Assembly (NCBI GenBank): GCA_038045085.1
Contig: JBBSYT010000078.1
Location: 1-34,762, forward strand
Length of the DNA: 34,762 nucleotides
Source of the DNA: Nanobdellota archaeon
GTDB taxonomy: Archaea > Nanobdellota > Nanobdellia > Woesearchaeales > UBA10107
Direction: 5' to 3'
Shown here: positions 12,606 to 12,757 of the stretch, in pieces
How the letters are laid out: every line of letters starts with the position of its first letter
How positions within the stretch are numbered: the stretch's first letter is position 1
Translations under genes and position numbers: made by a program
The notes under the pieces: generated by a model
What the model was told of the DNA's origin: nothing
Database searches by the model: none
What the model saw: only the letters and a program-made list of their open reading frames with translations

Positions 12606-12757
12606 AGGCTCTGTAGAAAATAACGCCGCCGTCTTGCTGCGAGGCTTCCAATGGACAAATAATAAAGCATTTTCCGAGGTTCCAGATAGGAAAATGCAAT
12701 ATAAATCAGTATAACAAGCCGAGCTGACGCGGAGTTATTTTCTATTTTCTACAGAGC
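12606..12757 (+). ncRNA. Structured hairpin-type element, copy 1 (unassigned candidate ncRNA)
   Basis: Termini GGCTCTGTAG / CTACAGAGCC pair. Inner stems are AAAATAACGCCGC/GCGGAGTTATTTT and GGCTT/AAGCC. Central hairpin GCATTTTCC-GAGGTTCCAGATA-GGAAAATGC at 12666-12696. Same architecture as 15621-15784. Strand is uncertain. Confidence 0.5.

What the first reader, a model, noticed from the sequence alone, without database searches (positions are those of the whole stretch)
12606..12757. Two-copy hairpin-type structured element with compensatory stem changes (copy 1): candidate new ncRNA family
Segments 12606-12757 and 15621-15784 share identical termini GGCTCTGT...ACAGAGCC. They also share the conserved blocks G.GAGGCTTC and ACAAGCCGA, and a central hairpin GCATTTT(C/T)C - G(A/G)GGTTCCAGATA - G(G/A)AAAATGC. 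Between these blocks the sequences are unrelated but stay complementary. Copy 1 pairs AAAATAACGCCGC with GCGGAGTTATTTT, while copy 2 pairs CCTAA with TTAGG and TTTTTAGCATC with GATGCTAAAAA. The central stem carries a C-G to T-A double change. The two pairs next to the conserved GA/AG step also covary (C-G in copy 1, T-A in copy 2). The GGCTT/AAGCC helix is flanked by 5'-GA/3'-AG on the plus strand, which could form tandem sheared G.A pairs. The 13-nt loop contains a T-loop-like GGTTCCAGA. A roughly 18+18 nt AU-rich internal loop differs completely between copies, as a guide or variable region would. Conserved structure with diverged sequence is what a functional RNA looks like, not a recent duplication. 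I cannot place it in any family I know: it is not a tRNA, 5S, SRP or RNase P RNA, and it does not fit C/D or H/ACA layouts.
Basis: seen in the sequence. Interest (0 to 1): 0.8.

Follow-up and report, generated by a model that had tools for sequence, protein, structure and literature searches.

The report
Small mobile hairpin repeats, not RNA genes
The two look-alike hairpins are copies of a small non-coding jumping-DNA element (a MITE with IS903-like ends) that is common in Woesearchaeota genomes and inserts right next to gene promoters. They are an ordinary kind of element, though their folded core is unusually well conserved.

Summary
Both are long hairpins with the stated shared blocks and compensatory changes, and Rfam has no match.

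They are not stand-alone RNA genes. They are MITEs:
- They have terminal inverted repeats, GGCTCTGT...ACAGAGCC.
- They have 9-bp target-site duplications. Copy 1 keeps 7-8 of 9 bases.
- An identical twin of copy 2 sits at another locus of the same groundwater sample with a perfect duplication.
- Both sites are empty in relatives.
- More than 140 related copies occur in Woesearchaeota/Nanoarchaeota MAGs, several per genome.

The termini (GGC...), the 9-bp duplication and an A-rich motif beside the target match the IS903 group of IS5. No transposase was found.

A covariance model built only from other genomes recovers both window copies full length, at E=1.7e-14 and 1.3e-8. All eight helices covary. 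Strand-neutral tests show no clear G:U excess, and copies have no preferred orientation to genes, so RNA function is unproven.

Two extra results:
- Members share a conserved core with two alternative apical-loop modules.
- The 9-bp target usually abuts the BRE/TATA of a neighbouring promoter, as in both window copies.

The parts
12607..12758 (+). MITE copy 1 (152 nt). The + strand is the family's reference orientation.
   Evidence: Model R1, built without window sequences, matches it full length at 39.9 bits, E=1.3e-8. The minus strand scores only 19.5 bits. It folds as a long hairpin. L143 holds a copy identical at 149/152 bases at another locus.
12607..12622 (+). Left terminal inverted repeat of copy 1: GGCTCTGTAGAAAATA.
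   Evidence: It is 16/16 complementary to 12743-12758 (pair I7). The same terminus occurs on elements in L085, L089, L103 and L115.
12743..12758 (+). Right terminal inverted repeat of copy 1: TATTTTCTACAGAGCC.
   Evidence: pair I7.
12598..12606 (.). Left target-site duplication of copy 1: TACATTATA.
   Evidence: It matches 12759-12767 (CACATCATA) at 7/9 positions, or 8/9 if the boundaries shift by one base.
12759..12767 (.). Right target-site duplication of copy 1: CACATCATA.
   Evidence: It directly abuts the BRE/TATA of rpoL.
12641..12647 (+). 5' half of the GA step plus the 5-bp helix (GA GGCTT). It pairs with 12716-12722.
   Evidence: The helix covaries across the family (helix 5).
12716..12722 (+). 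3' half of the helix plus the GA step (AAGCC GA).
12667..12697 (+). Apical hairpin of copy 1. A 9-bp stem carries the 13-nt loop GAGGTTCCAGATA. This is the second type of apical module in the family.
   Evidence: The same module occurs in 9 further loci, with a covarying outer stem.
12768..12781 (+). BRE/TATA of the rpoL promoter (GTAACA TTTATAAA). It is host DNA, not part of the element.
   Evidence: It is present without the element at the empty sites in L015, L017 and L018. The TATA box starts 15 nt from the element end, which fits the family rule.
15621..15784 (+). MITE copy 2 (164 nt).
   Evidence: R1 matches it full length at 63.6 bits, E=1.7e-14. The element in L141 is identical at 164/164 bases. 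It lies at a different locus with a perfect 9-bp duplication, CTAGGCTCA.
15621..15634 (+). Left terminal inverted repeat of copy 2: GGCTCTGTCCTAAG.
   Evidence: It pairs with 15771-15784, with one G-T pair. The terminus GGCTCTGTCCTAA is shared with more than 12 elements elsewhere.
15771..15784 (+). Right terminal inverted repeat of copy 2: TTTAGGACAGAGCC.
15684..15714 (+). Apical hairpin of copy 2, with the loop GGGGTTCCAGATA.
15612..15620 (.). Left flank of copy 2 (GAACTCATA), the presumed left target-site duplication.
   Evidence: Its right-hand partner has decayed. L019 carries a family member at the same position with a duplication kept at 8/9: CACTCCACA / CATTCCACA.
15785..15795 (.). Degenerate right flank of copy 2 (CGCCCCCCATA), the remnant of the duplication with an expanded C run.
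   Evidence: compared with L019.
15796..15809 (+). BRE/TATA of the rpl1 operon promoter (GCAATA TTTATAAA). It is host DNA.
   Evidence: It is conserved at the empty sites in L015, L017 and L018. The TATA box starts 17 nt from the element end.
15597..15606 (-). TATA-like box of the divergent uppS promoter. It is host DNA, about 15 nt from the left end of copy 2.
   Evidence: It is conserved in relatives that lack the element. It fits the spacing rule.

Best explanation
Both segments are copies of a miniature inverted-repeat transposable element (MITE). It is a non-coding, non-autonomous DNA transposon of 150-165 bp.

Proposed mechanism:
- A DDE transposase of the IS903 group of the IS5 family, encoded elsewhere, binds the terminal inverted repeats GGCTCTGT.../...ACAGAGCC. 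This step is inferred, because no transposase was found.
- It inserts the element at a 9-bp staggered cut, which leaves a 9-bp target-site duplication. The duplication is shown.
- The target is flanked by an A-rich motif (N9-GAAA). This resembles the known IS903 target motif WTTYA-N9-TRAAW. In these archaea it coincides with the BRE of promoters.
- As a result, copies land exactly at the upstream edge of a neighbouring gene's BRE/TATA. The pattern is shown. Whether transposase preference, promoter-bound factors or selection causes it is inferred.

Where the hairpin comes from: the two arms are extended inverted repeats around a conserved core. The core is a stem, an asymmetric loop, a short helix (with a G.A step in many members), a large AT-rich internal loop, and an apical stem carrying one of two conserved loop modules. 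The two window copies belong to two diverged subfamilies. That is why they share blocks and structure but only 63% of their sequence.

No effect on the neighbouring genes is needed to explain them. The native promoters of rpoL, rpl1, uppS and the 165-aa gene are left intact.
For: Ends and duplications:
- Copy 1 has 16/16 terminal inverted repeats. Copy 2's repeats pair at all 14 positions, one of them a G-T pair.
- Of 84 full-length family copies, 19 have a perfect 9/9 duplication and 15 have 8/9. Flanks shifted outward as a control give 0 and 2.
- Copy 1 keeps 7-8 of 9.

Recent movement:
- Copy 2 is 164/164 identical to an element on another contig of the same Hainich sample. That copy has the perfect duplication CTAGGCTCA.
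- Copy 1 is 149/152 identical to a third locus.

Presence/absence among relatives:
- Both sites are empty in relatives whose L1 protein is 92%, 73% and 71% identical, and the promoter sequences there are colinear.
- The uppS-rpl1 site holds different family members, in either orientation, in three other lineages.

Family membership and abundance:
- A model built from 14 elements of other genomes finds both window copies full length, at E=1.7e-14 and 1.3e-8.
- It finds 117 copies in 725 kb and 30 in a further 293 kb of related contigs, up to 5 in 8 kb.
- A 20-nt apex motif hits 109 places, almost all in Woesearchaeota/Nanoarchaeota MAGs.
- Copies are intergenic, with no orientation bias.

Link to IS903:
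- Family termini include GGCTTTGTTGAAAAT. IS903B has the inverted repeat GGCTTTGTTGAATAAATC and a 9-bp direct repeat (PMC10569121).
- The published IS903 target motif is WTTYA-N9-TRAAW (PMC2577343). The motif here is N9-GAAA.

Background: a MITE census reports a Woesearchaea genome among the most MITE-dense archaeal genomes (PMC11602168).
Against: - No autonomous element or IS5/IS903-type transposase was found. It is absent from the 50-kb source contig and from about 1 Mb of related loci.
- Copy 2's own duplication has decayed.
- The most conserved part of the family is the apical loop, not the termini. The same core occurs with several unrelated termini. This is unusual for MITEs and hints at a function beyond transposase binding.
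- A model-fitted alignment shows G:U pairs outnumbering A:C two to one.
Confidence: 0.9

Rival explanations
1. The MITE carries a functional single-stranded module. The conserved core, that is the three-way junction, short helix, internal loop and apical loop module, would act as a structured RNA or as folded single-stranded DNA. It could be an element-encoded small RNA, or a hairpin recognised by a transposon or host protein. The termini would only move it around.
For: - All eight helices covary, including the interior helix, the apical stem and a mini-hairpin present on one arm only. 91% of pair cells are paired, against 59% when shuffled and 37% when slid.
- The 20-nt apical loop is nearly invariant across subfamilies that have different termini, while its stem varies.
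- The same apical hairpin occurs in other, differently built structured elements.
- An asymmetric loop of 5-6 nt against 1-2 nt is kept in about 100 of 111 copies.
- The model-fitted alignment gives G:U 134 against A:C 63.
Against: - Strand-neutral tests show no clear asymmetry. Ungapped termini give 29 against 16 (p=0.07). An arm-against-arm alignment gives 27 against 23 (p=0.67). Minimum-energy folds give 217 against 208 G:U pairs, and the energy difference is -1.2 +/- 4.5 kcal/mol.
- Covariation between the arms of a DNA palindrome does not need an RNA.
- No internal promoter was recognised.
- No transcript data are available.
Confidence: 0.2
2. One reading: a stand-alone family of small non-coding RNA genes, possibly guide-like with a variable internal loop, kept at fixed genomic positions.
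For: - The fold is conserved, with compensatory changes.
- There is no Rfam match.
- The internal loops are variable.
Against: - The elements are absent at the orthologous sites of close relatives.
- They have inverted-repeat termini and 9-bp duplications.
- Identical copies lie at unrelated loci.
- The flanking TATA boxes serve the neighbouring genes and point away from the element. 55 of 63 such sides have an outward-reading ORF.
- The layout does not fit H/ACA, C/D or K-turn RNAs.
Confidence: 0.04
3. A cis-regulatory RNA of the rpl1 operon. The GA GGCUU / AAGCC GA motif of copy 2 would mimic the L1-binding site known from Methanococcus L1 mRNA. That resemblance is recalled from memory.
For: Copy 2 lies just upstream of rpl1, and the motif resembles the L1 site as I remember it.
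Against: - The element lies upstream of the rpl1 BRE/TATA, so it is outside the mRNA.
- Relatives with the same operon lack it.
- The same motif is in copy 1 next to rpoL, and in over 100 copies next to unrelated genes.
Confidence: 0.01
4. Another class of repeat that is recognised as a hairpin. Candidates are REPIN/RAYT, IS200/IS605-derived palindromic elements, or integron attC sites.
For: Like these classes, the elements form long imperfect hairpins with conserved structure and variable sequence.
Against: - From general knowledge, those classes leave no 9-bp duplication and lack this kind of terminal inverted repeat. Here 34 of 84 copies have a duplication of at least 8/9.
- No RAYT, TnpA or IntI gene was seen nearby.
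- The genes between the two copies are conserved syntenic housekeeping genes, not cassettes.
Confidence: 0.02

Closest known systems
IS903 group of the IS5 family, and MITEs derived from such insertion sequences
   Same: - Termini begin GGC. Some family members start GGCTTTGTTGAA, as in the IS903B inverted repeat GGCTTTGTTGAATAAATC.
- The target-site duplication is 9 bp.
- The target is flanked by an A/T-rich palindromic motif: IS903 has WTTYA-N9-TRAAW, and these elements have N9-GAAA.
   Different: - No transposase gene was found, so the link rests on the ends and the target only.
- The hosts are DPANN archaea.
- The interior has a conserved folded core that IS903 lacks.
Palindromic bacterial MITEs such as Neisseria Correia elements and enterobacterial ERIC repeats (from general knowledge)
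   Same: - They are 100-160 bp, intergenic and multicopy, with inverted-repeat ends.
- They fold as long hairpins when transcribed.
- Correia elements carry a conserved central protein-binding site.
   Different: - The termini and duplication length differ (Correia elements duplicate TA).
- Here the conserved centre is a 13-20-nt loop on a covarying stem, and it occurs with several kinds of termini.
- The insertion point is tied to archaeal BRE/TATA promoters.
Catalogued archaeal MITEs (bulk census, PMC11602168; Sulfolobus and haloarchaeal MITEs from general knowledge)
   Same: They are non-autonomous elements with inverted-repeat ends in archaeal intergenic DNA. The census notes a Woesearchaea genome with about 105 MITEs per Mb.
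   Different: I found no description of this family, its core structure or its promoter-edge insertion.
K-turn RNAs, H/ACA and C/D guide RNAs, and the archaeal L1 mRNA operator
   Same: All have a tandem G.A step next to a helix, and some have a large internal loop.
   Different: - There is no 3-nt bulge.
- The G.A step is replaced by A-U pairs in about a third of members.
- The order of motifs does not fit H/ACA or C/D RNAs.
- The element lies outside the rpl1 mRNA, and it is mobile.

Membership tests
MITE (non-autonomous DNA transposon) | Short and non-coding | tested here: met
   The copies are 152 and 164 nt. The assembly calls no gene there. Only chance ORFs overlap them.
MITE (non-autonomous DNA transposon) | Terminal inverted repeats | tested here: met
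   Copy 1 has 16/16. Copy 2's 14 positions all pair, one as G-T. The same termini recur on many other elements.
MITE (non-autonomous DNA transposon) | Target-site duplication of fixed length | tested here: met
   The duplication is 9 bp. In the family, 19 of 84 copies are perfect and 15 of 84 are 8/9, against 0 and 2 in the control. Copy 1 keeps 7-8 of 9. Copy 2's has decayed, but its identical twin in L141 has 9/9.
MITE (non-autonomous DNA transposon) | Many copies, with near-identical ones at unrelated loci | tested here: met
MITE (non-autonomous DNA transposon) | Insertion polymorphism (empty sites in relatives) | tested here: met
   In addition, L011 has a copy 3' of rpoL that the window lacks.
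MITE (non-autonomous DNA transposon) | A matching autonomous element with the same ends | tested here: inconclusive
   None was found in the source contig or in about 1 Mb of fragmentary MAG loci. Whole genomes could not be scanned.
IS5 family, IS903 group | Ends beginning GGC and similar to the IS903 inverted repeat | tested here: met
   Family ends are GGCTCTGT or GGCTTTGTTGAAAAT. The IS903B inverted repeat is GGCTTTGTTGAATAAATC.
IS5 family, IS903 group | 9-bp duplication with a palindromic A/T-rich flanking target motif | tested here: met
   compared with WTTYA-N9-TRAAW. The similarity is only approximate.
IS5 family, IS903 group | DDE transposase of the IS5/IS903 type | tested here: not met
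   A tblastn search with the IS903 transposase against all fetched archaeal loci gave nothing below E=2.5. Membership therefore stays an inference from the ends and the target.
Independent structured ncRNA gene | Kept at orthologous positions in related genomes | tested here: not met
   Empty sites in L015, L017 and L018.
Independent structured ncRNA gene | Covariation that supports a fold | tested here: met
   All 40 pairs show double changes, and 91% of cells are paired. This is confounded, because the arms of a DNA palindrome covary for other reasons and the alignment was fitted to the model.
Independent structured ncRNA gene | Strand-specific signal (G:U far more frequent than A:C) | tested here: inconclusive
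   The fitted alignment gives 134 against 63. Strand-neutral counts give 29:16, 27:23 and 217:208.
Independent structured ncRNA gene | A transcript with defined ends | not testable with these tools
   No expression data are available.
Known Rfam families | Match to a curated covariance model | tested here: not met
   There are no hits at gathering score or at E<=10 on the window copies, and none at E<=5 on relatives. ARAGORN finds no tRNA.
Kink-turn | A 3-nt bulge followed by tandem sheared G.A pairs | tested here: not met
   The G.A step lies inside a continuous helix. In about 35% of members the same positions are AA/TT or AA/TC.

The most novel reading that the evidence does not exclude
The conserved core is a functional single-stranded module, either RNA or folded DNA. 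It has been captured by, or has recruited, several different transposon termini. It comes with two interchangeable apical-loop modules, AGGGGAYGCUCCCUACGGGA or GRGGUUCCAGAUA. Because copies are placed exactly at the upstream edge of archaeal promoters, it could act there, for example as a dispersed regulator-binding site or a small RNA source that links many genes. The precise BRE-edge insertion would then be an archaeal case of promoter-targeted transposition.
Probability: 0.15. Interest if true: 0.6.

Novelty: new member of a known kind. Interest (0 to 1): 0.33.

Why it matters
- It removes a false lead. Conserved structure with diverged sequence is here produced by a transposable palindrome, not by an RNA gene.
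- It documents a large, apparently undescribed MITE superfamily in Woesearchaeota (DPANN) with IS903-like ends. This helps annotate these very compact genomes and explains differences in intergenic length between close relatives.
- Two features deserve follow-up. One is a deeply conserved folded core shared by elements with different termini. The other is insertion within about one base of the upstream edge of BRE/TATA promoters, which could reveal how a transposase reads archaeal promoters, or could affect expression of housekeeping genes.

Tried and rejected
- **tRNA, split tRNA or permuted tRNA.** ARAGORN finds none and there are no D or T arms.
- **Rfam families.** These include ribozymes, SRP RNA, RNase P RNA and HEARO/omega RNAs. 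Nothing matched at relaxed thresholds.
- **H/ACA, C/D and K-turn layouts.** The order of motifs is wrong, there is no 3-nt bulge and there are no box sequences.
- **L1 autoregulatory site.** The element is outside the mRNA and is absent in relatives.
- **A third copy near 18800.** This was suggested by 1-mismatch hits, but there is no hairpin there.
- **Exact three-block pattern in genome contigs.** 0 hits.
- **Looser patterns in viral contigs.** Only chance hits in coding DNA.
- **Search for a full-length IS.** I looked for inverted-repeat pairs 600-3000 bp apart. The only candidates were chance pairs, and the one whose ORFs I checked (L060) held a 377-aa and a 415-aa ORF unlike a transposase. 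tblastn with the IS903 transposase gave nothing.
- **CATAG as an att-like core.** This early idea was replaced by the 9-bp duplication abutting a BRE that starts with G.
- **G:U excess in the model-fitted alignment.** It was not reproduced by strand-neutral counts.

Full report
**Observation.**
The window carries two long hairpins.
- GGCTCTGT occurs four times in the window, only at their ends, against 0.33 expected.
- GGTTCCAGATAG occurs only in their two apical loops.
- The shared blocks, the C-G to T-A change in the apical stem and the covarying pairs next to the GA step are all present.
- Both copies fold far better than shuffled sequence, with z-scores of -4.6 to -6.2. This holds equally on either strand.
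- Rfam gives nothing at gathering score or at E<=10, and ARAGORN finds no tRNA.

**Context.**
The contig is CAYIWU010000003.1 of MAG GCA_964367185.1. Identical protein sequences occur in Hainich groundwater assemblies, and the closest L1 proteins are labelled Woesearchaeota. Each copy sits between divergent genes:
- Copy 1 lies between a 165-aa gene and rpoL.
- Copy 2 lies between uppS and the rpl1-rpl10-rpl12 operon.

**Presence and absence.**
Gene order is conserved in relatives. In genomes whose L1 is 92%, 73% and 71% identical, both intergenic regions are short (about 90 and 125 nt). They lack the element, and the promoter sequences on each side are colinear with the window's flanks.

The uppS-rpl1 site is filled in three other lineages, each time by a different relative of the element:
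- L019 (80% L1 identity) has the same termini but a different interior, in the opposite orientation.
- L011 (93%) has a longer version with a decayed left end.
- L021 (76%) has a short version.

L011 also has a copy 3' of rpoL that the window lacks. This pattern fits insertion, not an inherited gene.

**The family.**
The elements in L011 and L021 share an apical motif, AGGGGRYGCTCCCTACRGGA. Scanning one genome per species for it gave 109 hits, almost all in Woesearchaeota/Nanoarchaeota MAGs. There are up to eight or more contigs per genome, and some copies are near-identical.

Many hits have the same termini as the window copies: GGCTCTGTCCTAA... and GGCTCTGTAGAAAAT....

I built a covariance model from 14 elements of other genomes, with a hand-drawn structure.
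- It finds both window copies full length on the + strand, at 63.6 bits (E=1.7e-14) and 39.9 bits (E=1.3e-8).
- The minus strand scores only about 20 bits, and nothing else in the window matches.
- It finds 117 copies in 725 kb of related loci and 30 more in 293 kb. It finds none in the rest of the source contig, nor in the syntenic 20 kb of L015, L017 and L018.

The window's own apical module (TTYCGRGGTTCCAGATAGRAA) occurs at nine further loci, seven of them from the same Hainich sample.
- One is 164/164 identical to copy 2.
- One is 149/152 identical to copy 1.
- Both lie in unrelated flanking DNA.

The two window copies are only 63% identical to each other. They are members of two subfamilies, each recently active.

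**Transposon hallmarks.**
Nine-base direct repeats flank the termini. Of 84 full-length copies, 19 are perfect and 15 are 8/9, against 0 and 2 when the flanks are shifted outward as a control.
- Copy 1 has TACATTATA / CACATCATA.
- Copy 2's duplication has decayed, but its identical twin has CTAGGCTCA on both sides.

Family termini begin GGC, and some read GGCTTTGTTGAAAAT. IS903B has the inverted repeat GGCTTTGTTGAATAAATC and a 9-bp direct repeat (PMC10569121).

A shorter class of about 125 nt has the same core but other termini (GTATTTGTTTAGC) and 8-9-bp duplications.

No transposase was found in the source contig or the fetched loci. The IS903-type enzyme is therefore an inference.

**Structure.**
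It consists of:
- a terminal stem;
- a three-way junction with a small covarying hairpin on the 3' arm;
- a second stem (GGTTAGCNNC / GNNGCTAACC);
- an asymmetric loop of 5-6 nt against 1-2 nt;
- a short helix;
- a large AT-rich internal loop;
- a variable apical stem with a conserved loop.

On the model-based alignment, 91% of pair cells are paired. The figure is 59% when shuffled and about 37% when partners are slid. All 40 pairs show double changes.

This does not prove an RNA.
- The arms of a transposon palindrome covary anyway.
- The alignment was fitted to the model.
- The 2:1 excess of G:U over A:C in that alignment is not reproduced by strand-neutral counts. These give 29:16 (p=0.07), 27:23 (p=0.67) and 217:208 G:U pairs, with an energy difference of -1.2 +/- 4.5 kcal/mol.
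- The tandem G.A step is replaced by A-U pairs in about a third of members, and it has no adjoining 3-nt bulge. It is not a K-turn.
- Copies show no orientation bias relative to neighbouring genes. The counts are 24 divergent, 21 and 21 tandem, 15 convergent and 7 inside ORFs.

**Insertion rule.**
A TATA-like hexamer starts 15-17 nt outside an element end on 63 of 192 sides. Background is 0-2 counts per position, against 21, 10 and 24 at those three positions.
- 55 of the 63 sides have an ORF reading outward within 150 nt.
- Among 22 copies with intact duplications, 20 show this on at least one side.
- The summed flank is N9-GAAA-NN-TTTATAAA, which is a BRE plus TATA box. The 9-bp target therefore abuts the upstream edge of the BRE.
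- Both window copies obey this rule (rpoL, rpl1 and uppS promoters).
- The published IS903 target motif, WTTYA-N9-TRAAW (PMC2577343), resembles N9-GAAA.

An IS903-like target preference that happens to match the BRE is the simplest cause. Promoter-bound factors or selection in very compact genomes remain possible.

**What stays open.**
The apical loop is the most conserved part of the family. It occurs with several kinds of termini and in other structured, non-MITE-like elements. This hints at a function, such as protein binding or an RNA or single-stranded DNA module, that I could not test.

A MITE census already notes very high MITE density in a Woesearchaea genome (PMC11602168). I found no description of this family.

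**Verdict.**
The RNA-gene interpretation is replaced by a MITE with IS903-like ends, at confidence 0.9. That is a new member of a known kind and of modest interest. A functional structured core remains a minority possibility, at about 0.15-0.2.

Noticed in passing
Window 12759-12781 and 15785-15809; family-wide in L029-L146: Family copies insert with their 9-bp target directly against the BRE of a neighbouring promoter. The TATA box starts 15-17 nt from the element end on 63 of 192 sides, and the flank consensus is N9-GAAA-NN-TTTATAAA.
   Followed up: yes
L136:7100-7350, L057:1-130 (minus strand), L100:4060-4330, L051:860-1110, L098 and L120: The 20-nt apical hairpin AGGGGAYGCUCCCUACGGGA also sits in other structured elements that are not built like the MITE. 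These are Y-shaped: a closing stem, the apex hairpin and a second hairpin. One lies on a contig labelled Omnitrophota. None has an Rfam match.
   Followed up: partly
L076:55-253 and L116:1798-2014: A small extra segment beginning CCAACGRAGTTGGTGCCGAA is inserted inside two MITE copies. It may be a still smaller nested mobile hairpin.
   Followed up: no
L071:1-5100; L140:2562-2884: Family copies cluster. L071 has five within 8 kb. L140 has two side by side, only about 14 nt apart.
   Followed up: no
L033, L034, L038, L087, L117 and others: A shorter class of about 125 nt shares the core but has other termini (GTATTTGTTTAGC) and 8-9-bp duplications. The same core therefore travels with different ends.
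   Followed up: partly
Window 18915-19612 compared with L011:12809-13332: The toxin-antitoxin pair downstream of the ribosomal operon differs between close relatives. The window has MazE-like plus PIN, and L011 has PemK plus DUF7557. This is a small variable island.
   Followed up: no
Window 58-9261: A run of genes for coiled-coil and membrane proteins without Pfam matches. Two of them share a C-terminal motif (NGRYAEARRYF...NPDKKDDL). Their function is unknown.
   Followed up: no
Window 5800-5861 and 22331-22382: Two other intergenic palindromes, with 31-nt arms (84% complementary) and 29-nt arms (83%). The family model does not match them.
   Followed up: no
L025:1731-1884 (viral contig, 61% GC): An unrelated 154-nt perfect-arm hairpin with ends GGCTCTGTACGAAAAG...CTTTTCGTACAGAGCC. 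It is probably another MITE with IS903-like termini, in a different host.
   Followed up: no
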